Assembly (NCBI GenBank): GCA_026686805.1
Contig: GCA_026686805.1_3949.1
From: a phage
Strand: one strand, 5' to 3'
DNA length: 52,601 nt
Below, one piece after another: positions 5,220 through 16,732 of this stretch (position 1 is its first letter; the number at the start of each line of letters is the position of its first letter). A model generated the notes under the pieces. It made no database searches. It was given only the letters and a program-made list of their open reading frames with translations, and had not been told where the DNA came from. Position numbers and translations under genes: made by a program.

Positions 5220-5566
5220 TTTCCAATCCCTCTCAATCGTTTATTCCACTCAAGGTCAACAAGTCTTTGCAGGACTTTCCCTCTAGGTGTTACACCTTTT
5301 AAATCTGCATCGTAGCAACGGTAAAAGTCACCTTCAGCGTGTTTACCATAGCATTTTCTGATATTCTGACTCCTACGATATTGTTCTAATAGAGACAGCT
5401 TGTAGTAATCTTCAACTGTAGTTAGTTTTTTCATTCTTTCACCGTAGTGTTTCTCTAGAAACAAAAAGGGAACTACCTCTCGATAGCTCCCATCATAATC
5501 AGTGTTGTATACTCGGTCAAGAGTATTTTTTAGGCAGTAATGCGCTACGTTTGTTACTCTCTTCAC
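5216..5566 (-). CDS. hypothetical protein (start uncertain)
   Basis: ORF from track; overlaps upstream ORF, internal Met possible. Confidence 0.4.
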   Translation of the reverse strand: MKRVTNVAHYCLKNTLDRVYNTDYDGSYREVVPFLFLEKHYGERMKKLTTVEDYYKLSLLEQYRRSQNIRKCYGKHAEGDFYRCYDADLKGVTPRGKVLQRLVDLEWNKRLRGIGK

Positions 5567-6098
5567 TCAATAGTGCGATAAATTCGTCGCCTTTACCTTT
5601 CCACGGGCTGAATGAAGGGATATGCTCACGAATAGCCTCAATAACCGTCTTAAGTGCTGTATTTTTCATCCACCAATCAGAATCTGCTGATGCCACTACG
5701 TAGTATCCACCTTCATCAGTCAGAATTGGCTCTGAGATACATGGAGAAATCAAAGTTGTGACGATTGAACCATTGTTCATGTAGTATGTACGCTTAATAA
5801 CCTTTTCAAGAAGCTTGTGAAGGTCACCGAACAGTGTTACAAGTTCTTTGTGGTCAATGTCTTTTTCGAGGCTTGCTCGATACTTCAATAGTGCAGCATC
5901 AACCTCTCTGTCATTGAATTTGAAGTACTGGACTTCATCAACAAGGCAAACACTGATATTGTTGACATTCATAGTCAACTTACAGACTTTTGCAGGAGAA
6001 TTGATACTTGGTTGAAAAAGTGCAACACAACCTTCAATGTTCCCAAAATGTTGGACTAGTGTTACTTGTGGGGTAATATTCTGTTGCTCTTCGGACAT
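5517..6098 (-). CDS. hypothetical protein (193 aa)
   Basis: ORF from track. Confidence 0.5.
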   Translation of the reverse strand: MSEEQQNITPQVTLVQHFGNIEGCVALFQPSINSPAKVCKLTMNVNNISVCLVDEVQYFKFNDREVDAALLKYRASLEKDIDHKELVTLFGDLHKLLEKVIKRTYYMNNGSIVTTLISPCISEPILTDEGGYYVVASADSDWWMKNTALKTVIEAIREHIPSFSPWKGKGDEFIALLSEESNKRSALLPKKYS

Positions 6099-6728: not shown

Positions 6729-7126
6729 TAACGAATCACCTGTGAGACTTGAATTGCTTCAGTTACTGACAAGTCACCTACTTTCTCTTCTTTGATAAAG
6801 GTGAAGGTAAGTTCAACAGGCTCTCGCTCTTCTTGCTCAACTGGAACACCATTAAGCTCATCAAAGATTGATTGGGTTGTCCAATCTTCACCACCATCTG
6901 GGTAGTGGATTGCGTAAAGAGGGAACTCCCTGTCAAACCAACCAAATACAGGACAACCATCTTCATCATCTCGTACTCGATGAAGTGTGCTTCCAGACCC
7001 TGTAAACTGAAGGAATAAATCTCCGTTGCACTTGTATATTACTGCATCGGCAAAACCTATATCTTCTCGACCATCATGGCCAAACGTGTCAACTTTTACT
7101 TGGATATCTCTAACATCTTTATTCAT
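6728..7126 (-). CDS. hypothetical protein (132 aa)
   Basis: ORF from track. Confidence 0.5.
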   Translation of the reverse strand: MNKDVRDIQVKVDTFGHDGREDIGFADAVIYKCNGDLFLQFTGSGSTLHRVRDDEDGCPVFGWFDREFPLYAIHYPDGGEDWTTQSIFDELNGVPVEQEEREPVELTFTFIKEEKVGDLSVTEAIQVSQVIR

Positions 7127-7568: not shown

Positions 7569-8033
7569 TTACTTTGGATATAGATTGTCAAGATAAATGG
7601 CAGCTTCCATTCTACGTCTGTTTTTCAGGCCGTTTGAAGTGACCTTCTTACCTTTTACTGTAACCTTGTTCCACCACTGCATAGCTTCTGCACAACCGAC
7701 CTTATTACCAGCATTGTGGCGCTTGATAAATGTAGAGTCCTGCATAGCTGTGATACCAATGTTGTATGTTTCACTTACAAGTGCATCAAACTCGTTCTGA
7801 GAAGTTGGAACCTTGATAGCTTTGTTCACTGCTGCAACGAACTTTTCAACATCTGCGAGAAGATACTGTTCAGCTTGTTCAGCGGTAATCTTCATACCCA
7901 TCTTAACAGGTTTTCCGTCAATACGGATTGTCCCATACCCAATTGTTGGGATTCCGGCAGAGTCTTCGTAAGCCTCTAACTTCAGACCTTCGAAGAACTT
8001 AATAGCATCTAAACCTTTTCTTGAGAGTTGCAT
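7569..8033 (-). CDS. endolysin, phage lysozyme (GH24, T4-lysozyme-like)
   Basis: N-terminal motif ...FEGLKLEAYEDSAGIPTIGYGT... matches the catalytic Glu/Asp/Thr region of GH24 lysozymes (from memory); 154 aa. Confidence 0.8.
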   Translation of the reverse strand: MQLSRKGLDAIKFFEGLKLEAYEDSAGIPTIGYGTIRIDGKPVKMGMKITAEQAEQYLLADVEKFVAAVNKAIKVPTSQNEFDALVSETYNIGITAMQDSTFIKRHNAGNKVGCAEAMQWWNKVTVKGKKVTSNGLKNRRRMEAAIYLDNLYPK

Positions 8034-8917
8034 TATGCCTCCCCTGCTGGATTAACTGTAACTGTTGCTGCATTAGATGTTACAGAGCCACCTGCGCCAG
8101 TAACTACACAGGTGTAGCTTCCTGAATCAGCAGCGGTTGCTCCTTCTTTGGTGTAGGTTGCAGTAGTTGCATCGAGGATGTCTTCCTCATCTTTCTTCCA
8201 CTGATAACCTGTTGCACCTGTTGCCACAACATTCAACGTTAAGGTCTCACCTTCATTGATTTCTTGATTGGTTGGCTGTTGAGTGATGACAGGTAGTGCG
8301 TTCACAGTCACTGTTGCTGCATCTGAGGTAACACTTGTTCCACCCTCTCCAGATACAACACAAGTGTATGAACCAGCGTCAGAAGGTGCTACTGACTGTT
8401 TTGTGTAAGTTGCAGAATTGGCACTAGGGATGTCCTCACCATCCTTTTTCCATTGATATCCAGTGGCATTAGTTGCAATAACGCTTAGGGTAAGTGTACC
8501 CCCTTCATTTACTGTTTGATTGGTTGGTTGCTGAGTGATTGATGGTGGTGTGATGACATCTTTCAACTTAGCATTCAACATTGAGAACGGCTTAACTCTT
8601 GCCAACCATTCACAGTAAATTGTGTCAACATCTTTACCATTGATGATTGCATACTGCAAATCCATGAAGAAATCAGCAGTTCTCATCTGTGCACCAACAC
8701 TGTAAAGCAATTCATCACTAAATGGAACTTTGTAGTCTGGTTTGTAGTCAAACTTCTCAACTTCTGCAATATCAGCTTCAGGCCAATATGAACTATAGGT
8801 AAGTGGTAAAATAGCCTCTTGATATGTTCTAAAATCATATCTCTTACCAGCCTTTACGTTTGCAATGAAGCCCTTCACAAACTCTTTAAAGTCTGGGTAA
8901 GTCTTTGCTTTAATCAT
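8033..8917 (-). CDS. protein with N-terminal domain paralogous to the adjacent gene plus two tandem Ig-like domains
   Basis: two ~85-aa repeats (..PSITQQPTNQTVNEGGTLTLSV.ATNATGYQWKKDGEDI...SYTCVVSGEGG..VTSDAATVTVN) typical of Ig/I-set-like folds; N-terminus aligns with ORF 8914..9285. Confidence 0.6.
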   Translation of the reverse strand: MIKAKTYPDFKEFVKGFIANVKAGKRYDFRTYQEAILPLTYSSYWPEADIAEVEKFDYKPDYKVPFSDELLYSVGAQMRTADFFMDLQYAIINGKDVDTIYCEWLARVKPFSMLNAKLKDVITPPSITQQPTNQTVNEGGTLTLSVIATNATGYQWKKDGEDIPSANSATYTKQSVAPSDAGSYTCVVSGEGGTSVTSDAATVTVNALPVITQQPTNQEINEGETLTLNVVATGATGYQWKKDEEDILDATTATYTKEGATAADSGSYTCVVTGAGGSVTSNAATVTVNPAGEA

Positions 8918-9285
8918 TTCTTTTTAGCCTCTAAATGTGCGTTTAGTCTAAAATAACCTTTGTGGTGTGGAGATACATCACCAACAACAATGCCTTTAAC
9001 CTTATAACCTTTACCAATTACATACTGAATATCCATAAGGAATCTCCCAAGACCAACAATATGGAACATTGGATATAATAGGTTCTCAGAGTCTGGAATA
9101 TTGATTTCAGGTTTGTAGGTGTGTTGTTTGCTTGTTGGTGTAATATCTTCTTCAGGCCATTTACTGAGTCTCCATGTCAAAGGTGTTGGGATAACATCAT
9201 TAAGGTTGTACCTTTCACCATTTTGCACGGAATTGATATAGGATTGTAGGAAGCAATAAAAGTCTTTTGCACTCTTAGCTTTCAT
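8914..9285 (-). CDS. hypothetical protein, paralog of the N-terminal domain of 8033..8917
   Basis: shared motifs (YxxP...FMDLQY.I..GKDV / FLMDIQYVIGKGYKV; RxxxFxxLNAxL) seen by eye. Confidence 0.5.
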   Translation of the reverse strand: MKAKSAKDFYCFLQSYINSVQNGERYNLNDVIPTPLTWRLSKWPEEDITPTSKQHTYKPEINIPDSENLLYPMFHIVGLGRFLMDIQYVIGKGYKVKGIVVGDVSPHHKGYFRLNAHLEAKKK

Positions 9286-10542: not shown

Positions 10543-10914
10543 ATGAAAAACAGAACAAACAAAGGCCAGTTTAAAAAAGGCCAATCTGGAAACCCATCTG
10601 GAAGACCAAAAGGCTCTCGCAACAAAAGCTCACTTGTAAAAGCTCAACTGACCATTGACAATTCTGCTGAGTTTGCTGCAAAGTTATTTGAAGCGATTGT
10701 TACAAGGGATGCTGCTAAGCTTGCAGAGTTCGGGTTAAACACAGATGACGTAACCATCAAGAGTATGATTGAGGTCGGTAAAACTATCTTTACTCACTCA
10801 GCAGGTGAGATGAAAGCACTTGCAGCAGACACTAAGAAGACTCCTGATAATGGTGGTCAACAACAGACAGATAACAAACCAACGTTCTCTGCTGTAGCGA
10901 CTCTTAAAAAATAA
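10543..10914 (+). CDS. hypothetical protein with basic N-terminal GNPSGRPKG (AT-hook-like) motif
   Basis: ORF with AAGAGG RBS; motif KGQSGNPSGRPKGSRNK suggests nucleic-acid binding (inference). Confidence 0.55.
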   Translation: MKNRTNKGQFKKGQSGNPSGRPKGSRNKSSLVKAQLTIDNSAEFAAKLFEAIVTRDAAKLAEFGLNTDDVTIKSMIEVGKTIFTHSAGEMKALAADTKKTPDNGGQQQTDNKPTFSAVATLKK

Positions 10915-10995: not shown

Positions 10996-12411
10996 ATGAG
11001 CGAATTATTTAAACATGCGCACCTTCATGCAGGTCGAACTGAAAATGGTGCTGTAAACCATACTTCATCAATGTCTGCTCTTGTAGACTTTTACAAAGCT
11101 GCTGGTTCAAGCCGTAGCAACGTAGAAATCTTACCAGACCTGTTCTACAAAGCTTTGCGTGAGGATGTTGATGTTGTAGTTCGTATTTTGCTTCATATGC
11201 GAGATGTACGAGAAGGTATGGGTGAGCGTAAAGCCTTCAGAACTGTTTTACTTCAAGCGATTGAAGACAAAGTTTTAGAGCCTACGCAGGTTCTTCGCAT
11301 TATGGATAAGATTGCAGAACTTGGTCGTTTTGATGACTTCAAAATCTTCGTAGGTACTCGTTTCGAGACAGATGCCTTCAAACATCTAGAAGCAGCATTA
11401 CTAGACCCTGCAACAGCAGGTTTGGCGGCTAAGTGGTTACCACGAGTCAAACCACGTCATAAGCAGTTTGTAAAACGTTTCTGCAAGTTTGCCAACTTGA
11501 GTGAGAAAGAGTACCGCACACTGTTGTCTGCACTATCTGATACAGTTGAGCAAAAAATCTCTGCTAATGAGTTTGGTAAGATTGACTACAGTAAGATTCC
11601 TTCACTTGCTGCTGCACGTTACCAAAAACTGTTTAACCGCAAAGATGGAGAACGCTACAAAGCTTACATCGAGTCCTTATCAAAGGGTGAGGCTAAGATT
11701 AATGCTGGTGCTGTTTACCCATACGATGTAATTAAATCTGTTAAGCATGGTAATGCAGATGTTGCTAATGAGCAGTGGAAAGCACTACCAAACTGGATGG
11801 CAGAGGGTGAAAACATCTTGTGTATGTCTGATGTTTCAAGCTCAATGTCTTGGGTGAATTTTGGTTCAATTACTGCTCTTGATATTGGTGTTTCACTTGC
11901 ATTGTATGTAGCAGAACGTAATACAGGTTGCTTTAAGAATGAGTTGATGGTTTATTCAACAAACCCTCACTTCATCGAACTGAGTGGTGATTTACGAAAC
12001 CGTCATCGTCAGGTGATGCGACACGTTGAATATGGCTCAACTAACTTACAAGCAGCTTTTGACCGTATTCTTGAAACAGGTAAAAGAAACAACTTGACTC
12101 AGAAAGATATGCCAAGTAAGCTTATCATCTTCTCCGATATGGAGTTCAATCAGGTTGATGGAGCTAACGGTCGTACAAACTTTGAAGCAATTCGTAGTAA
12201 GTACAAAAAAGCTGGATACGAAATGCCTCAACTGGTATTCTGGTACTTAGCAAACCGTAATGGTACTTGCGAAGTGTCTGTTAAGGATAACGGTGTAGCA
12301 ATGGTATCTGGTTTTTCTCCAGCTACTTTAAAAGCTCTGCTTGGTGGTGAGAAGTTTGACCCAATCAGTGTAATGCTCAAAGCAGTAATGATTGACCGTT
12401 ATATCTGGTAA
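10996..12411 (+). CDS. von Willebrand factor A (vWA) domain protein with MIDAS motif, N-terminal helical domain
   Basis: DxSxS MIDAS-like motif (MSDVSSSMS) followed by hydrophobic strand ...LIIFSDMEFNQ; 471 aa; RBS present. Confidence 0.55.
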   Translation: MSELFKHAHLHAGRTENGAVNHTSSMSALVDFYKAAGSSRSNVEILPDLFYKALREDVDVVVRILLHMRDVREGMGERKAFRTVLLQAIEDKVLEPTQVLRIMDKIAELGRFDDFKIFVGTRFETDAFKHLEAALLDPATAGLAAKWLPRVKPRHKQFVKRFCKFANLSEKEYRTLLSALSDTVEQKISANEFGKIDYSKIPSLAAARYQKLFNRKDGERYKAYIESLSKGEAKINAGAVYPYDVIKSVKHGNADVANEQWKALPNWMAEGENILCMSDVSSSMSWVNFGSITALDIGVSLALYVAERNTGCFKNELMVYSTNPHFIELSGDLRNRHRQVMRHVEYGSTNLQAAFDRILETGKRNNLTQKDMPSKLIIFSDMEFNQVDGANGRTNFEAIRSKYKKAGYEMPQLVFWYLANRNGTCEVSVKDNGVAMVSGFSPATLKALLGGEKFDPISVMLKAVMIDRYIW

Positions 12412-12420
12412 AAAGTTTTA

Positions 12421-12457
12421 AAAAGGGTATTGACAATGTGTTTGATACCCTTTAATA
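12421..12457 (+). promoter_or_regulatory. sigma70-like promoter TTGACA-17-TAATAT embedded in a perfect 9-bp inverted repeat, upstream of the tRNA array
   Basis: -35 ttgaca 12429-12434, 17-nt spacer, -10 taatat 12452-12457; inverted repeat aaagggtat(12421-12429)/atacccttt(12444-12452). Confidence 0.45.
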
Positions 12458-12576
12458 TGTTCTACATAGAAACGAAACGAGAGCTTTTCTAAGATACTGA
12501 AAAATATTTTAAAAAAGTTCTTGACAACCACTAAAAAATAATGTTAAAGTGGTTACATAGAGTTTGAAAAGTTTAT

Positions 12577-12738: not shown

Positions 12739-12745
12739 GTTTTGA

Positions 12746-12817
12746 CAGAAGACCAATTACAGCAAACTTAATCTACTCATCTGACACGAAATCGGACAAA
12801 GAAGATATTTGGTCTGG
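12746..12817 (+). repeat. bipartite spacer element copy a (CAGAAGACC-nnWTWCAGCAA ... GGTCTGG)
   Basis: seen directly; 5' block 12746-12765, 3' block 12811-12817; agacc/ggtct can pair. Confidence 0.5.
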
Positions 12818-12828
12818 TCATTGAGAAT

Positions 12829-12905: not shown

Positions 12906-12911
12906 ATTTTG

Positions 12912-12971
12912 CAGAAGACCGTATTCAGCAACAAAATACTTTTTGCGGATAAAAGAAAAAACACGGTCTGG
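12912..12971 (+). repeat. bipartite spacer element copy b
   Basis: gcagaagaccgtattcagcaa ... acacggtctgg. Confidence 0.5.
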
Positions 12972-12982
12972 CAATGTATTAA

Positions 12983-13160: not shown

Positions 13161-13237
13161 GGCTATGTAGTTTAACTGGAGAAAATACTCCCCTGTCACG
13201 GGAGATGATGTGAGTTCAAGTCTCATCGTAGCCGCCA
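13161..13237 (+). tRNA. tRNA-Asp (anticodon GTC)
   Basis: acceptor ggctatg/cgtagcc, anticodon stem ctccc/gggag, loop ctGTCac, T-loop ttcaagt, CCA. Confidence 0.75.
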
Positions 13238-13298
13238 ATTTTGAGAGGGCTATTTAGCCCCTCCCTTAAAGAGTTCTTACGAGTATTCTTTAAAGGAG

Positions 13299-13372
13299 CA
13301 GAAGACCAAATACAGCAAGAATGTATGAAATTTCAAGCCAATTTAATTTTGAAAATTTAAAACTTGGTCTGG
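13299..13372 (+). repeat. bipartite spacer element copy c
   Basis: agcagaagaccaaatacagcaa ... aacttggtctgg. Confidence 0.5.
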
Positions 13373-13385
13373 CTCAACAAATTTA

Positions 13386-13517
13386 CAGAAGACCGTTTAC
13401 AGCAAAACTTAAACAATCTATTTCTCCGGTAAAGAAAAGGCGAAGGTTCGATTCCTTCACTCGGCAGATGTCGAGTTGGTGTAATGGTAGCACTTAAGAT
13501 GATAAACAACGGTCTGG
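13386..13517 (+). repeat. bipartite spacer element copy d, enclosing a tRNA-like relic
   Basis: acagaagaccgtttacagcaa ... aacaacggtctgg; interior holds T-arm/acceptor-like and acceptor/D-arm-like segments. Confidence 0.5.
13442..13495 (+). other. tRNA-like relic in reversed half order (T-arm + 3' acceptor strand immediately followed by complementary 5' acceptor strand + D-arm)
   Basis: gaagg-ttcgatt-ccttc + actcggc then gtcgagt + ggtgtaatggtagcac; no complete cloverleaf can be drawn. Confidence 0.35.
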
Positions 13518-13666
13518 TAATTATCTTTGTAGATAAGTTATTAAGCTTACCTGTGAGTATGCGACCACAAAGGGTGAAAGGGTAAATTCTAGATTTAAAC
13601 CCAACAAGGCACATCGCTACAGACCTTAAGCAAGTCTGGGTAGCTTATCTACAAAGGTAATTTAAT

Positions 13667-13742
13667 GGAAGTGTAGCAGAATGGTGATGCGGCAGACTTT
13701 TAATCTGACAGGCGATGGGTTCGAATCCCTCCACTTCTACCA
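13667..13742 (+). tRNA. tRNA-Lys (anticodon TTT)
   Basis: acceptor ggaagtg/cacttct, anticodon loop ctTTTaa, T-loop ttcgaat, CCA; T-stem weak in my fold. Confidence 0.6.
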
Positions 13743-13831: not shown

Positions 13832-14326
13832 GTGATACTTATGATTTGTGCTAACAAAGATTGCGGAAATGAAGCCGTTAAAGGTGGAAAATTTTGCTCA
13901 CGCTCTTGTTCTGCAAAAGTGAACAACAAGAAACACCCAAAGAGAAGTCAGGAAGGCTCTTGCCATTCATGCGGAAAGGTAACGCCAAAAGCAAGAAAAT
14001 ACTGTGACGAATGTATTTCAGGTGGAGTCATGAAAAAACATAAGACCCATCATGAAAAAAGCAAAGCTAAATCACTGCACGTTAAAAAGTCTCGTGATAG
14101 ACTGAAGAAGGCTTTAGTTGATTACAAGGGTGGTTGTTGTTCAATTTGTGGTTACAATAGGTGCATAAAGGCTCTAGAGTTTCACCACTTAGACCCTAAC
14201 ACAAAAGACTTCACAGTAGGTCAAAAACACTACTCACTGGCTACAATGCAGTCTGAAGTTGATAAGTGTGTCTTGCTTTGTGCAAATTGCCATAGAGAAG
14301 TACACGAAGGGGTAACAATGCTGTGA
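13832..14326 (+). CDS. HNH homing endonuclease (Cys-rich N-terminus, C-terminal HNH motif)
   Basis: C-terminal ...CSICGYNRC...LEFHHLDPNTKDF...CVLLCANCHREVHEG = HNH signature; embedded in tRNA array; stop codon overlaps start of tRNA-Ile. Confidence 0.75.
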   Translation: MILMICANKDCGNEAVKGGKFCSRSCSAKVNNKKHPKRSQEGSCHSCGKVTPKARKYCDECISGGVMKKHKTHHEKSKAKSLHVKKSRDRLKKALVDYKGGCCSICGYNRCIKALEFHHLDPNTKDFTVGQKHYSLATMQSEVDKCVLLCANCHREVHEGVTML

Positions 14327-14643: not shown

Positions 14644-14725
14644 CGGGGCGTATCTCAGCGGTCTTCTAAACCGCCGTTAACCGAGTAAGTGGAGTATGCG
14701 GGTTCGAGTCCTGCCGCCTCGACCA
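14644..14725 (+). tRNA. atypical tRNA-like gene, possible tRNA-Arg (anticodon TCT); D-arm not placeable, 23-nt region between anticodon and T arms
   Basis: acceptor cggggcg/cgcctcg, perfect anticodon arm gcggt-ctTCTaa-accgc, T-arm gcggg-ttcgagt-cctgc, CCA; geometry non-canonical. Confidence 0.35.
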
Positions 14726-15811: not shown

Positions 15812-15886
15812 ACTCGCTTAGTTTATATGGTAAAACATCACCCTTACAAGATGAAGAAAAAGGTTCAAGTCCTTTAGTGAGTACCA
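15812..15886 (+). tRNA. tRNA-Val (anticodon TAC)
   Basis: acceptor actcgct/agtgagt, anticodon stem tcacc/gatga (one mismatch), loop ctTACaa, T-arm aaagg-ttcaagt-ccttt, CCA. Confidence 0.65.
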
Positions 15887-15887
15887 T

Positions 15888-15965
15888 GTTCCAGTATCCC
15901 AATTGGCAGAGGATGCAAGCTCAAACCTTGTATTAGTGACGGTTCGAATCCGTCTTGGAACACCA
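15888..15965 (+). tRNA. tRNA with CAA anticodon (Leu by anticodon), short variable loop
   Basis: acceptor gttccag/ttggaac, anticodon stem gcaag/cttgt, loop ctCAAac, T-arm gacgg-ttcgaat-ccgtc, CCA. Confidence 0.55.
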
Positions 15966-15981
15966 ATTTTAGGAGAACACT

Positions 15982-16089
15982 ATGAGCAATAAGTCAATTG
16001 CAAAAAAGTTTAGAGCGTCATACCTAAACAGACGTAAAAACAAAGTTTGTGAAAAACTGTATGGTGTTCTCGTAGGTAAGCAGGATTAG
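15982..16089 (+). CDS. possible small ORF (35 aa, basic) overlapping the 5' end of tRNA-Arg
   Basis: AGGAG RBS 6 nt upstream of ATG; below the track's 60-aa cutoff; overlap with tRNA makes it doubtful. Confidence 0.2.
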   Translation: MSNKSIAKKFRASYLNRRKNKVCEKLYGVLVGKQD

Positions 16090-16155
16090 TTCAAATGGAT
16101 AGAGCAACAGTCTACGAAGCTGTTAATAGGGGTTCGAATCCCTTATCCTGCACCA
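16080..16155 (+). tRNA. tRNA-Arg (anticodon ACG)
   Basis: acceptor gcaggat/atcctgc, D-arm gttcaaatggatagagc, anticodon stem acagt/gctgt, loop ctACGaa, T-loop ttcgaat, CCA. Confidence 0.75.
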
Positions 16156-16174
16156 ATTTAAAGAGGCTATTTAG

Positions 16175-16732
16175 ATGAGATATTTGAAGTATGCTTCATG
16201 GATTTTCTTAGCTTTGTTAGAGCCATTTGCAGCAATCTTAGCAGTTATCTTAGCACCTTTTGTAGTTCCATTCTACAGTGAGAAGAAAGGACACTTACCT
16301 TTCGGGTTCAGATGGATGGAGACATATGACAACCCAATTGATGGTGATGAAGGTCACGTTAAAAGATGGGCTAATATCAGATGGATTGGTAAACTAGGTG
16401 TCTACATGCAAAGAGTCGGATGGCTCTGGAGAAACAAAGCTTATAACTTCTCTTACCATGTATTAGGAAGAGATGTAAAAGATGTTACTAAGTGGAAAGG
16501 TAATATCAACGTAAGTTCTGACCCTGAAGATAATCAGACAGGTTATCTACTAATGTGGAACAGTAATGCTTGGGGATTATTCGCTTTTATCCCATCAATT
16601 AAAATCTTTGGTAAACAATTTTACTGGAGAATTTATATTGGATGGAAACTAAAAAGTGTTGTCCCAGAAGAAAGAGCATTCTCAAGGGAAAGAGTTATGT
16701 TGGCATTCTTTATTCATCCACTGAGAAAGTAA
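16175..16732 (+). CDS. hypothetical protein with hydrophobic N-terminus (185 aa), embedded in tRNA array
   Basis: ORF from track; N-terminal hydrophobic segment WIFLALLEPFAAILAVILAPFVVPF. Confidence 0.5.
   Translation: MRYLKYASWIFLALLEPFAAILAVILAPFVVPFYSEKKGHLPFGFRWMETYDNPIDGDEGHVKRWANIRWIGKLGVYMQRVGWLWRNKAYNFSYHVLGRDVKDVTKWKGNINVSSDPEDNQTGYLLMWNSNAWGLFAFIPSIKIFGKQFYWRIYIGWKLKSVVPEERAFSRERVMLAFFIHPLRK

What the first reader, a model, noticed from the sequence alone, without database searches (positions are those of the whole stretch)
13442..13495. tRNA-like halves in reversed order: permuted tRNA or relic of a tandem tRNA pair
A T-arm plus 3' acceptor strand (gaagg-ttcgatt-ccttc-actcggc) is followed 4 nt later by the complementary 5' acceptor strand plus a D-arm-like segment (gtcgagt-tg-gtgtaatggtagcac). 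No anticodon arm can be placed in a normal cloverleaf. The likely explanation is the junction of two decayed tandem copies of one tRNA gene; the more interesting alternative is a circularly permuted tRNA, known from some algae and archaea but not phages. It sits inside bipartite spacer element d.
Basis: partly seen in the sequence, partly recalled or inferred. Interest (0 to 1): 0.5.

Follow-up and report, generated by a model that had tools for sequence, protein, structure and literature searches.

The report
Phage Y RNA with permuted tRNA mimic
The reversed tRNA halves are real, but they are most likely the tRNA-shaped part of a small non-coding "Y RNA" encoded next to a phage Ro60-like RNA-binding protein, which points to the RNA partners proposed but not located for that anti-defence protein.

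Summary
At 13421-13493 all four tRNA arms are present in circularly permuted order: anticodon-like hairpin, T arm, a 7-bp acceptor hairpin closed by AGAU, then D arm. Un-permuted in silico, ARAGORN calls tRNA-Thr(GGU).

It is not a decaying relic. The arrangement is kept in about 250 Ounavirinae genomes and recurs in distant phages. All 7 acceptor pairs, 3 of 4 D-stem pairs and 2 of 5 T-stem pairs show compensatory changes.

It is unlikely to be a decoding tRNA. The "anticodon" loop varies (7 nt, 6 nt, other triplets, degenerate).

The domain sits in the loop of a bipartite stem followed by UACAGCAA. This is one of four such hairpins (a-d) in the tRNA array. They lie 0.3-1 kb downstream, on the same strand, of a 471-aa DUF2828/vWA protein. 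The predicted fold of that protein matches Ro60, and it is the ortholog of Bas63 gp130.

T arm, acceptor hairpin, D arm next to Ro60 is the architecture of YrlA-type Y RNAs. A model built only from these phages finds a full-length match beside the Ro-like gene of a mycobacteriophage.

Verdict: a new variant of a known kind. Expression and protein binding are untested.

The parts
10996..12411 (+). Gene for a 471-aa Ro60-like protein (DUF2828 + DUF7788/vWA). It is the ortholog of Bas63 gp130 and the presumed protein partner.
   Evidence: Pfam PF11443 and PF25043. PHROG 850 'RNA-binding protein'. AF2 model with pLDDT 88. The Foldseek PDB top 10 are all full-length Ro60/TROVE, E 7e-9 to 1e-6, TM 0.47-0.66. 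97.9% identical to MZ501086 80319-81731. 34% identical to mycobacteriophage 'Ro-like RNA binding protein'.
12430..12550 (+). Two sigma-70-like promoter matches (12430-12458 and 12521-12550) ahead of the tRNA array. They are the likely start of the transcript that carries the hairpins.
   Evidence: Consensus scan, 10 of 12 matches each. No + strand terminator-like site between them and 13520. These are consensus matches only.
12743..12820 (+). Hairpin a (stem only). Outer helix TGAC/GTCA, internal loop AGA/G, inner helix AGACCAA/TTGGTCT, then TTACAGCAA. It fills the tRNA-Glu to tRNA-Met spacer.
   Evidence: R1 33.4 bits, E 1e-5. MFE fold.
12909..12974 (+). Hairpin b (stem only). Outer helix TTGC/GCAA, internal loop AGA/G, inner helix AGACCGT/ACGGTCT, then ATTCAGCAA. 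It fills the tRNA-Met to tRNA-Asn spacer.
   Evidence: R1 34.9 bits, E 5e-6. MFE fold.
13296..13375 (+). Hairpin c (stem only). Outer helix GAGC/GCTC, internal loop AGA/G, inner helix AGACCAA/TTGGTCT, then ATACAGCAA.
13383..13520 (+). Hairpin d, the complete Y-RNA-like element that contains the finding. Outer helix TTAC (13383-86) / GTAA (13517-20). Internal loop AGA (13387-89) / G (13516). Inner helix AGACCGTT (13390-97) / AACGGTCT (13508-15). Motif TACAGCAA at 13398-13405.
   Evidence: The MFE fold reproduces every helix. RNAalifold predicts the closing helix, T arm, acceptor hairpin and D arm independently. Covariation.
13421..13441 (+). Anticodon-arm-like hairpin TTTCT-CCGGTAA-AGAAA (equivalent to the 'V' stem-loop of YrlA) plus the 4-nt variable region AGGC.
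   Evidence: Rfam tRNA partial alignment. ARAGORN after un-permuting. The loop varies among relatives: CCGGTAA, CGGTAA, CTGGTAA, CTATGAA, and degenerate in Mooglevirus.
13442..13458 (+). T arm GAAGG-TTCGATT-CCTTC, with G53, T54, T55, C56, R57, A58 and C61 in place.
   Evidence: Invariant in Ounavirinae. 2 of 5 pairs covary in distant homologs.
13459..13476 (+). Acceptor-like hairpin ACTCGGC-agat-GTCGAGT (7 bp). The predicted RNase P site is between 13469 and 13470.
   Evidence: Three stem types with compensatory changes at pairs 2, 3 and 5 in Ounavirinae. All 7 pairs covary when distant phages are included. A length of 7 bp can be drawn in every homolog examined. In the SUSP2/Sf13 type that leaves a 2-nt loop, so as an uncut hairpin it is 6 bp with a 4-nt loop.
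13477..13493 (+). U8-G9 linker and D arm GTGT-AATGGTA-GCAC (A14, G18, G19, A21).
   Evidence: Invariant in Ounavirinae. 3 of 4 pairs covary in distant homologs.
13616..13644 (+). Small conserved hairpin GCTACAGAC-CTTAAGCAA-GTCT-GG-GTAGC just before tRNA-Lys. Its loop carries the related AGCAA motif. Whether it belongs to the system is uncertain.
   Evidence: Covarying stem between the window and Mordin/SUSP2 (CAGAC/GTCTG versus CAAACC/GGTTTG). Fold.

Best explanation
The reversed tRNA halves are the tRNA-mimic module of a phage Y RNA of the YrlA type.

Shown here:
- The RNA structure and its covariation.
- The Ro60-like fold of the neighbouring protein.
- The conserved linkage of hairpins and gene across phages.

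Inferred:
- The tRNA array is transcribed from the promoters at 12430/12521 (inferred).
- Maturation of the flanking tRNAs releases the spacers as 65-140-nt hairpin RNAs a-d (inferred).
- Their ends are locked in a bipartite stem: a 4-bp outer helix, an AGA/G internal loop and a 7-8-bp inner helix, next to a single-stranded (U)ACAGCAA.
- By analogy with Y RNAs, this module is the docking site for the Ro60-like ring protein encoded immediately upstream (10996-12411) (inferred).
- Hairpin d additionally carries a complete, circularly permuted tRNA-like domain in its loop (V/anticodon-like hairpin, T arm, 7-bp closed acceptor stem, D arm). It keeps the nucleotides needed for the T-loop/D-loop elbow, so it should fold into a tRNA L-shape and recruit or decoy tRNA-recognising factors onto the Ro-like particle (inferred).
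- Because the acceptor stem is exactly 7 bp, RNase P probably opens the AGAU loop at 13469/13470 and the new 3' end is trimmed and CCA-tailed. This was shown for the 7-bp YrlA of M. smegmatis (inferred here).
- The likely biological role is RNA surveillance, RNA repair or counter-defence, since the Bas63 ortholog gp130 counters the ppl defence system (inferred).

Expression, processing, protein binding and role are all inferred, not shown.
For: - Structure. All arms are present. The MFE fold and RNAalifold recover the closing helix, T arm, acceptor hairpin and D arm.
- Covariation. On 14 sequences that include distant phages, 94.5% of cells are paired against about 45% for slid controls. 16 of 29 pairs have changes on both sides (7/7 acceptor, 3/4 D stem, 2/5 T stem, 3/8 closing helix), and 0 of 500 shuffles reach these values.
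- Protein. Pfam DUF2828 + vWA. The AF2 model matches only Ro60/TROVE full length at the top of the PDB. A profile search picks the Ro60 MIDAS region weakly. 34% identity to mycobacteriophage 'Ro-like RNA binding protein'.
- Linkage. The element starts 972 nt downstream of the gene on the same strand. The published YrlA criterion is within 4 kb on the same strand (PMC4201824).
- Homologs. Model R1, built only from Ounavirinae, finds full-length matches beside the Ro-like gene in a 143-kb phage contig (62 and 49 bits), in the tRNA array about 6 kb upstream of the gene in Vibrio phage phi-pp2 (44 bits), and in mycobacteriophage Rumpelstiltskin (52 bits, E 2e-10). In Rumpelstiltskin, three hairpins with the same stem + ACAGCAA module follow the gene directly, and the middle one carries T arm, 7-bp acceptor hairpin, TA, D arm.
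- Stem + ACAGCAA hairpins cluster within about 250 nt of the gene in Aeromonas, Listeria, Campylobacter and metagenomic phages.
- Negative control. The T5 tRNA array has no Ro-like gene annotated in the stretch fetched. No full-length R1 hit there exceeds 16 bits.
- Literature. YrlA has the order T, AS, D with a closed acceptor stem and "resembles circularly permuted tRNAs". The 7-bp M. smegmatis YrlA is cut by RNase P and CCA-tailed. Bas63 gp130 is Ro60-like, and its Y RNAs were only guessed at.
Against: - The Rfam YrlA model (RF02553) does not match the window even at E<=10. It gives only 21 bits (gathering score 69) on the mycobacteriophage homolog.
- The published Ro-binding motif GNCGAAN0-1G is not present near the 5' end. 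GGCGAAG at 13439-13445 lies at the V/T junction and is not conserved among relatives.
- There is no expression, RNA-end or binding data.
- gp130 alone, moved into T7 or expressed from a plasmid, counters ppl without the phage hairpins. The RNAs are therefore not needed for that phenotype.
- Two natural Felixounavirus isolates have lost the tRNA-like domain through deletions, so it is dispensable for growth in culture.
- Fold z-scores are modest, -0.9 to -2.2.
- Alignment A4 was fitted to the model, which inflates the pairing counts somewhat.
Confidence: 0.75

Rival explanations
1. It is a true circularly permuted tRNA gene. The transcript is circularised or ligated at position 26/27, opened at the acceptor loop, and becomes a decoding tRNA-Thr(GGU).
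For: All four arms are present, and the un-permuted sequence is called tRNA-Thr(GGU) by ARAGORN for the window and SUSP2 types. SUSP2/Sf13 have a canonical CUGGUAA loop. The acceptor stem can be drawn as 7 bp in every homolog. Leader and trailer pair with each other. Some deposited records annotate a tRNA-Thr here.
Against: The anticodon loop is not conserved. The window has C33, many Felixounaviruses have a 6-nt loop, one contig has CUAUGAA, and the Mooglevirus arm is degenerate. There is no bulge-helix-bulge motif: the only leader-trailer helix lies 23 and 13 nt away from the 26/27 junction. From established knowledge, bacteria lack the splicing endonuclease used for permuted tRNAs in algae and archaea. 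Three paralogous hairpins have the same stem and no tRNA parts. A homolog (L038 9682-9819) lacks the anticodon-like arm altogether.
Confidence: 0.05
2. It is a neutral relic: the junction of two decayed tandem copies of one tRNA gene, with no present function.
For: A tandem-dimer origin is plausible. Mooglevirus copies keep G-CCA-AACA after the 3' strand, like a normal tRNA end plus spacer. Listeria phage A511 shows a T arm plus 3' strand in front of an intact tRNA-Lys. T-loop recombination does rearrange this region.
Against: T and D arms are invariant over about 250 genomes, while the acceptor stem changes only by compensatory substitutions. The same permuted order recurs in mycobacteriophage, Vibrio and metagenomic phages with different sequences but retained pairing. 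No relative shows an intact tRNA pair at this position.
Confidence: 0.03
3. The hairpins, including the tRNA-like one, are processing or stability elements of the polycistronic tRNA precursor, or stable by-product RNAs like those of T4 and T5. They act independently of the Ro60-like protein.
For: Hairpins a and b fill their inter-tRNA spacers almost exactly. A tRNA-like fold with a 7-bp acceptor stem is an RNase P substrate by design. T5 has experimentally known stable and 'tRNA-like' RNAs inside its tRNA array without a Ro-like gene nearby. gp130 works without the hairpins in T7.
Against: The same hairpin module follows or precedes the Ro-like gene where no tRNA genes are annotated or were detected in the flanks fetched: mycobacteriophage cluster L and Campylobacter phage Los1. 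R1 finds none in the T5 array.
Confidence: 0.12
4. The region encodes a small protein. The candidates are the 58-aa ORF 13321-13497 (+) and the 85-aa ORF 13357-13614 (-). Several deposited records annotate small ORFs here.
For: The ORFs exist. Some records annotate hypothetical proteins here.
Against: There are 1-nt and other non-triplet indels among close relatives. ORF lengths and frames over the T loop change erratically between relatives. The substitution pattern is RNA-type covariation.
Confidence: 0.01

Closest known systems
YrlA (Y RNA-like A) of bacteria and mycobacteriophages, Rfam RF02553 (Chen et al. 2014, PMC4201824; Wang et al. 2018, bioRxiv 10.1101/312249)
   Same: Order V stem-loop, T arm, closed acceptor-like stem, UA/UG, D arm. 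T and D loops carry the tRNA tertiary-contact nucleotides. The acceptor stem is conserved in pairing, not in sequence. The whole domain is enclosed by pairing of flanking strands. It is encoded within 4 kb of a Ro60 homolog on the same strand. The 7-bp acceptor stem matches the M. smegmatis RNA that RNase P cuts.
   Different: No match to the Rfam model. No GNCGAAN0-1G motif; instead there is an AGA/G internal loop and (U)ACAGCAA. The protein partner is a DUF2828-type Ro60 homolog, with no TROVE family (PF05731) among the Pfam matches at E<=0.01. The RNA is embedded in a phage tRNA array together with three stem-only paralogs. The hairpin 5' of the T arm looks like a full anticodon arm.
Hairpins next to the 'Ro-like RNA binding protein' gene of cluster L mycobacteriophages (e.g. 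Rumpelstiltskin JN680858, 41412-41682)
   Same: Same stem + UA(A)CAGCAA module in three tandem hairpins, the middle one carrying T arm, 7-bp acceptor hairpin, TA, D arm. Found by the Ounavirinae model at 52 bits. The protein is 34% identical.
   Different: They lie directly 3' of the gene and end in a terminator, not inside a tRNA array. The internal-loop sequence differs (UGU/A). I could not verify whether exactly these RNAs are among the 22 phage YrlA listed in 2014, because the supplement is not held.
Circularly permuted tRNA genes of Cyanidioschyzon merolae, other algae and Thermofilum pendens (Soma 2014, PMC3978253, cited)
   Same: The 3' half is encoded before the 5' half, joined by a short linker that closes the acceptor stem. 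Leader and trailer pair.
   Different: Those genes have a bulge-helix-bulge motif and are matured into ordinary decoding tRNAs with conserved anticodons. Here there is no such motif, the anticodon loop drifts, and the host lacks the enzyme.
Stable non-tRNA RNAs inside phage tRNA arrays: T5 RNA I, III, IV, 'tRNA-like' RNA1/2/3 (record AY543070), and T4 species 1 and 2 RNAs (from my own knowledge)
   Same: Small structured RNAs co-transcribed with, and processed out of, a phage tRNA cluster. Some are tRNA-like and of unknown function.
   Different: No sequence or model similarity, and no Ro-like gene annotated in the T5 stretch fetched.
Thermus phage phiLo Ro60 with Yrl1/Yrl2 (PMC12135203)
   Same: A phage-encoded Ro60 homolog with phage-encoded Y-like RNAs next to the gene. 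That protein is among the best structural matches of the window's protein (9kop, 9l5y).
   Different: Those RNAs have a CGAA motif in a large bulge, and no tRNA-like domain is described for them. They lie upstream of the gene.
Dictyostelid Class I RNAs, Rfam RF01414 (Kjellin et al. 2021, PMC7919456)
   Same: A short covarying stem joining the 5' and 3' ends, a conserved CCUUACAGCAA-type motif directly after the 5' stem strand, a variable loop, and about 60 nt in length. Aeromonas and Vibrio phage hairpins even share the AAG start and CUGU end and score 26-30 bits on the Rfam model.
   Different: All hits are below the gathering score of 41.5; the window's element d scores 12.8 bits. Class I RNAs are reported as restricted to Dictyostelia and bound by the RRM protein Rnp1A. 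No link to a Ro-like protein is known.

Membership tests
YrlA-type Y RNA | T-arm-like and D-arm-like stem-loops with tRNA-invariant nucleotides, in the order T then D | tested here: met
   T arm 13442-58 (G53, T54, T55, C56, R57, A58, C61) and D arm 13479-93 (A14, G18, G19, A21), preceded by U8. Both are conserved.
YrlA-type Y RNA | A stem-loop between T and D in the place of the acceptor stem, conserved in pairing rather than in sequence | tested here: met
   7 bp + AGAU at 13459-76. Three stem types in Ounavirinae, and 7 of 7 pairs covary with distant homologs.
YrlA-type Y RNA | A further, less conserved stem-loop (V) 5' of the T arm | tested here: met
   Hairpin 13421-37. It is variable or degenerate among relatives.
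YrlA-type Y RNA | 5' and 3' parts pair to form the stem that carries the Ro60 binding site | tested here: inconclusive
   A covarying bipartite stem encloses the domain. The RNA ends and the protein contact are unknown.
YrlA-type Y RNA | GNCGAAN0-1G motif near the 5' end | tested here: not met
   The 5' part carries (U)ACAGCAA instead. GGCGAAG at 13439-45 is at the V/T junction and changes to GGAGAAG, GGTGAAG or GAGAGAAG in relatives.
YrlA-type Y RNA | Encoded within about 4 kb of a Ro60 ortholog, on the same strand | tested here: met
   The gene at 10996-12411 (+) has a Ro60-like fold. The element starts at 13383 (+).
YrlA-type Y RNA | Reaches the gathering score of Rfam RF02553 | tested here: not met
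   No hit at E<=10. The mycobacteriophage homolog reaches 21.4 of 69 bits.
YrlA-type Y RNA | Expressed and bound by the Ro60 protein | not testable with these tools
   Needs Northern blot or RNA-seq, and immunoprecipitation or gel shift.
Circularly permuted tRNA gene | 3' half upstream of 5' half, with the halves complementary in the acceptor stem | tested here: met
Circularly permuted tRNA gene | Un-permuting gives a canonical tRNA with a conserved anticodon loop in all orthologs | tested here: not met
   Holds only for the window and SUSP2 types. There are 6-nt loops, C33, other triplets and a degenerate arm elsewhere.
Circularly permuted tRNA gene | Bulge-helix-bulge motif formed by leader and trailer at the junction | tested here: not met
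   The nearest leader-trailer helix is 23 and 13 nt from the 26/27 junction and has a 3/1 internal loop, not two 3-nt bulges 4 bp apart.
Circularly permuted tRNA gene | A mature, contiguous tRNA is produced | not testable with these tools
   Needs tRNA-seq or circular RT-PCR.
tRNA pseudogene / tandem-pair relic | Neutral decay: no compensatory substitutions, patchy conservation, intact pair in some relatives | tested here: not met
   Covariation and wide conservation. No intact pair in any relative fetched.
Dictyostelid Class I RNA (RF01414) | Reaches the Rfam gathering score | tested here: not met
   Window 12.8 bits. Best phage hairpins 25.7-29.8 bits against 41.5.
Dictyostelid Class I RNA (RF01414) | Short stem joining the ends plus an 11-nt CCUUACAGCAA motif after the 5' stem strand | tested here: inconclusive
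   The stem and UUACAGCAA/UACAGCAA are present in a-d and in homologs. Whether this is homology or convergence is unknown.

The most novel reading that the evidence does not exclude
The module that encloses the permuted tRNA is a stem plus (U)ACAGCAA. On this reading it is the general RNA ligand of DUF2828-type Ro60-like proteins, and it is the same module as that of the dictyostelid Class I RNAs. Those abundant developmental RNAs would then be Y-RNA-like partners of a Ro-like protein. The phage versions would be their viral counterparts. In hairpin d, RNase P would open the acceptor loop and CCA addition would follow, giving a two-piece tRNA look-alike that recruits or decoys tRNA-targeting host factors during defence and counter-defence.
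Probability: 0.15. Interest if true: 0.8.

Novelty: new variant of a known kind. Interest (0 to 1): 0.6.

Why it matters
- A 2024 preprint showed that the Ro60-like protein gp130 of the Felixounavirus Bas63 counters a bacterial defence system. It could only guess that "some tRNA genes are possibly Y RNAs" (PMC11482910). This analysis proposes where they are: not among the tRNA genes but in the spacers, as four hairpins, one of which carries a permuted tRNA mimic. That makes the question directly testable.
- It defines a conserved RNA module, different from the published Ro-binding motif, that accompanies this protein family in phages of enterobacteria, Vibrio, Aeromonas, Campylobacter, Listeria and Mycobacterium.
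- It supports the idea that tRNA-mimicking Y RNAs arise from tandem tRNA genes.
- It flags recurrent mis-annotation of these loci, either as tRNA-Thr/Asn or as small ORFs.

Tried and rejected
- Permuted group I intron (intron halves flanking the exons in reversed order). No G lies before 13421 to serve as the intron's terminal G (read directly from the sequence).
- Promoter reading of TTGACA-like starts of the repeats. The -10 regions are inconsistent between copies.
- Coding reading. Rejected on indels and erratic ORFs.
- Intrinsic terminators. No + strand terminator-like site inside the spacer.
- A proximal "anticodon stem" CUUA/UAAG closing the four-hairpin junction appears in the window's MFE fold but is not conserved in SUSP2/Sf13.
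- A loose regex scan for stem + WCMGCAA has a background of about 4.6 hits per shuffled window. I therefore rely on model scores, position and conservation rather than on that count.
- Searches that failed: the search for related loci on viral contigs, afdb50 fold search, three papers not held, supplements of PMC4201824 not held.
- Sequence search of the protein against the PDB found nothing. Only the fold comparison was informative.
Full report
**Context.** The window is a Felixounavirus. The Asp-Lys spacer 13238-13666 is 100% identical to Escherichia phage allfine and 95-99% identical in about 200 Felix O1-like phages. ARAGORN finds 25 tRNA genes, all on the + strand, between 12577 and 18093. 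Rfam at gathering threshold finds only tRNAs. The finding lies in the 429-nt spacer between tRNA-Asp (13161-13237) and tRNA-Lys (13667-13742).

**Observation.**
- T arm GAAGG-TTCGATT-CCTTC, 13442-13458
- 3' acceptor strand ACTCGGC, 13459-13465
- AGAT, 13466-13469
- 5' acceptor strand GTCGAGT, 13470-13476
- TG, 13477-13478
- D arm GTGT-AATGGTA-GCAC, 13479-13493

TTTCT-CCGGTAA-AGAAA at 13421-13437, followed by AGGC, sits exactly where an anticodon arm and a 4-nt variable region precede a T arm. The Rfam tRNA model aligns to it (22 and 24 bits, below threshold). Joining 13470-13494 to 13421-13466 gives a sequence that ARAGORN calls tRNA-Thr(GGU), and the same holds for the SUSP2 version. As a chance control, I paired the 3' acceptor strand of every tRNA in the window with the 5' strand of every other. 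Only 2 of 650 combinations reach 7/7. The 25 true junctions reach at most 6, with a median of 3.

**Not a relic.** I aligned the spacer from three genera of Ounavirinae and collected 26 further contigs by pattern search.
- The T and D arms are invariant.
- The acceptor stem occurs in three versions: ACTCGGC/GTCGAGT in the window, ACACGTT/GGCGTGT in SUSP2 and Sf13, and ACCCTTC/GAAGGGT in Mordin and Michonne. They differ by compensatory changes at pairs 2, 3 and 5.
- The linker varies from 2 to 8 nt. In Mooglevirus it reads G-CCA-AACA, like a normal tRNA 3' end plus spacer, which fits an origin from a tandem tRNA pair.
- RNAalifold independently predicts a closing helix, the T arm, the acceptor hairpin and the D arm.
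- No relative has an intact tRNA pair at this position.

**Not a decoding tRNA.** The anticodon-like loop is CCGGTAA (C33) in the window and CGGTAA (6 nt) in many Felixounaviruses. It is CTGGTAA in SUSP2/Sf13 and CTATGAA in one contig, and the arm is degenerate in Mooglevirus. One distant homolog lacks the arm altogether. There is no bulge-helix-bulge motif, and the only leader-trailer pairing lies 23 and 13 nt from the 26/27 junction. The overlapping ORFs are not conserved in frame or length.

**The enclosing element and its paralogs.** The tRNA-like domain sits in the loop of a bipartite stem:
- outer helix TTAC/GTAA (13383-86 / 13517-20)
- internal loop AGA/G
- inner helix AGACCGTT/AACGGTCT (13390-97 / 13508-15)
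- single-stranded TACAGCAA immediately after the 5' strand

The MFE fold reproduces this. Three more hairpins have the same module without any tRNA parts: a at 12743-12820, b at 12909-12974 and c at 13296-13375. Both helices covary between the copies: TGAC/GTCA, TTGC/GCAA, GAGC/GCTC and TTAC/GTAA for the outer helix, and ..CAA/TTG.. versus ..CGT/ACG.. for the inner helix. Hairpins a and b fill their inter-tRNA spacers almost exactly, so tRNA maturation would release them. Two sigma-70-like promoters precede the array, and no + strand terminator-like site intervenes.

**The neighbouring protein.** The ORF 10996-12411 (+) ends 165 nt before the first tRNA.
- It carries Pfam DUF2828 and DUF7788 and matches PHROG 850 'RNA-binding protein'.
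- Sequence search of the PDB finds nothing. A family profile weakly picks out the MIDAS region of Ro60 (E 0.42).
- An AlphaFold2 model built on 40 homologs (pLDDT 88, pTM 0.88) matches Ro60/TROVE proteins over their full length, and these are the ten best PDB hits. They include Xenopus and human Ro60, Deinococcus Rsr and the Ro60 of Thermus phage phiLo, with E 7e-9 to 1e-6 and TM 0.47-0.66. Isolated vWA domains follow only at E>1e-3.
- tblastn finds the family in 710 phage records. These include 95 mycobacteriophages, where it is annotated 'Ro-like RNA binding protein' (34% identity over the full length), as well as KVP40-like Vibrio phages, Aeromonas, Listeria, Campylobacter, Staphylococcus, Enterococcus and Bacillus phages.
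- It is 97.9% identical to Bas63 gp130. A 2024 preprint reports that gp130 resembles Ro60, counters the ppl defence system and works when moved into T7. [quoted passage not shown] The Bas63 record annotates two small minus-strand ORFs over the spacer.

**Comparison with Y RNAs.** Chen et al. (PMC4201824) and Wang et al. (bioRxiv 10.1101/312249) describe YrlA as follows:
- a stem formed by the 5' and 3' parts
- a V stem-loop, a T arm, an acceptor-like stem closed by a loop, UA, and a D arm
- the description "resemble circularly permuted tRNAs"
- a probable origin from dimeric tRNA transcripts
- a location within 4 kb of Ro60 on the same strand

The M. smegmatis YrlA has a 7-bp acceptor stem, is cut by RNase P and receives CCA. 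The window's element has this architecture and this genomic linkage.

**Homologs elsewhere.** A covariance model (R1) built only from Ounavirinae sequences finds full-length matches in these places:
- a 143-kb phage contig, 550 and 240 nt after the Ro-like gene (62 and 49 bits), each with new T, acceptor (7 bp) and D stem sequences
- the tRNA array of Vibrio phage phi-pp2, about 6 kb upstream of its Ro-like gene (44 bits)
- mycobacteriophage Rumpelstiltskin, 97 nt after the gene (52 bits, E 2e-10)

In Rumpelstiltskin, three tandem hairpins GGACGC-UAACAGCAA..GCGUCC, GGACUCC-UACAGCAA..GGAGUCC and GGUCAC-UAACAGCAA..GUGACC follow the gene and end in a terminator. The middle one holds CTGGG-TTCGAGT-CCCAG, TAGCGGC-cctgt-GTCGCTA, TA and GCTT-AAGGGCA-GAGC.

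On the 14-sequence alignment that includes these distant members, 94.5% of cells pair against about 45% with slid partners. 16 of 29 pairs changed on both sides: all 7 acceptor pairs, 3 of 4 D-stem pairs, 2 of 5 T-stem pairs and 3 of 8 closing-helix pairs. No shuffle of 500 reaches these values. One caveat: this alignment was fitted to the model.

Stem-only hairpins with the ACAGCAA motif also occur near the gene in other phages:
- directly upstream of the gene in a metagenomic phage (three)
- in Aeromonas phage 4_4572 (at least seven)
- in Listeria phage A511 and Campylobacter phage Los1 (one each)
- in the tRNA array of Yersinia phage P778 (four)

The T5 tRNA array, with no Ro-like gene annotated in the fetched stretch, gives no comparable hit.

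**What does not fit.**
- Rfam's YrlA model does not match the window even at E<=10. It reaches only 21 of 69 bits on the mycobacteriophage element.
- The published GNCGAAN0-1G motif is absent from the 5' part. The GGCGAAG at the V/T junction is not conserved.
- gp130 acts without the hairpins in T7.
- Two natural isolates have lost the domain. SP116 lost it by recombination between the element's T loop and that of tRNA-Lys, and ESCO49 by a deletion from tRNA-Tyr to position 13494.
- Nothing is known about expression.

**Conclusion.** The best-supported reading is a YrlA-like Y RNA, one of four hairpin RNAs that are candidate ligands of the phage Ro60-like protein. It has a divergent binding module and an unusually complete permuted tRNA domain. 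I file it as a new variant of a known kind, because two defining sequence features of YrlA were tested and not met, while the architecture and the genomic linkage are met.

**Side observation.** The same module (a stem joining the ends, UUACAGCAA after the 5' strand, a variable loop) defines the Class I RNAs of dictyostelid amoebae. Rfam's Class I model gives repeated sub-threshold, full-length hits to the phage hairpins: 26-30 bits in the Aeromonas phage, 15-19 bits in the mycobacteriophage and 13 bits in the window. I could not test whether this is homology.

Noticed in passing
L042 525-577, 4140-4193, 4598-4660, 4844-4898; L041 6511-6557, 6644-6705; window 13391-13516: The phage stem + UUACAGCAA hairpins give repeated sub-threshold, full-length hits to Rfam Dicty_Class_I_RNA (13-30 bits; gathering score 41.5). 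Aeromonas and Vibrio copies also share that family's AAG start and CUGU end. Class I RNAs are reported as unique to Dictyostelia. One of their four pull-down proteins, DDB_G0281243, has no known function.
   Followed up: partly
window 14644-14722: A tRNA-Arg(UCU)-like gene that Rfam scores at 31.7 bits and ARAGORN misses. It has no D arm (7 nt between the acceptor and anticodon stems) and a 23-nt variable region. It replaces the canonical tRNA-Arg(UCU) that Bas63 and REP5 have at this position.
   Followed up: partly
window 13387-13397 versus L036 33627-33703 (Bas63 tRNA-Arg): AGAAGACCGUU in the 5' strand of hairpin d is the exact reverse complement of positions 26-36 (AACGGUCUUCU, including the UCU anticodon) of the phage tRNA-Arg(UCU). 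All four hairpins share AGAAGACC. This may be chance or may reflect a shared origin. It is not conserved in other phage groups.
   Followed up: no
window 13832-14326 (+): A 164-aa HNH endonuclease ORF (PHROG 2255) is inserted between tRNA-Met and tRNA-Ile. In Bas63 these two tRNAs are 1 nt apart. It is a likely homing endonuclease.
   Followed up: partly
L046 (SP116) about 1100-1137; L047 (ESCO49) about 880-905: Natural deletions. SP116 fuses the element's T arm to the 3' end of tRNA-Lys (T-loop recombination). ESCO49 lacks tRNA-Asp, hairpin c and the tRNA-like part of d. T-loops seem to act as recombination points in this array.
   Followed up: partly
L043 (Listeria phage A511) 784-840: A T arm plus a 3' acceptor strand lies just upstream of, and is complementary to the 5' strand of, an intact tRNA-Lys. 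This is about 4 kb upstream of the Ro-like gene gp57. It may be an evolutionary intermediate between a tandem tRNA pair and a permuted mimic, or simply a partial duplication.
   Followed up: no
L001 701-831 (REP5); H164 Zakai, H170 Gardann; L036 32748-33022 (Bas63): Deposited records mis-annotate these elements. REP5 has a 131-nt 'tRNA-Thr_GGT'. Two mycobacteriophages have 'tRNA-Thr' or 'tRNA-Asn' over the YrlA-like RNA. Bas63 has small minus-strand hypothetical ORFs.
   Followed up: partly
L045 (phage T5, AY543070) 5285-5645, 6809-6980, 7839-8084, 8878-8950, 15849-16567: The T5 record annotates experimentally known stable RNAs, including 'tRNA-like stable RNA with unknown functions', inside its tRNA array. 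They are unrelated to the present model.
   Followed up: partly
window 13616-13644: A small hairpin with loop CUUAAGCAA lies just before tRNA-Lys. It is conserved, with a compensatory stem change, in Mordin/SUSP2, and a similar hairpin is present in Yersinia phage P778 (L034 about 13612-13640).
   Followed up: partly
window 10543-10914 (+): A DUF5681 protein gene directly precedes the Ro-like gene here, in Yersinia phage P778 and in L037. In L040 it lies instead next to the large terminase gene.
   Followed up: no
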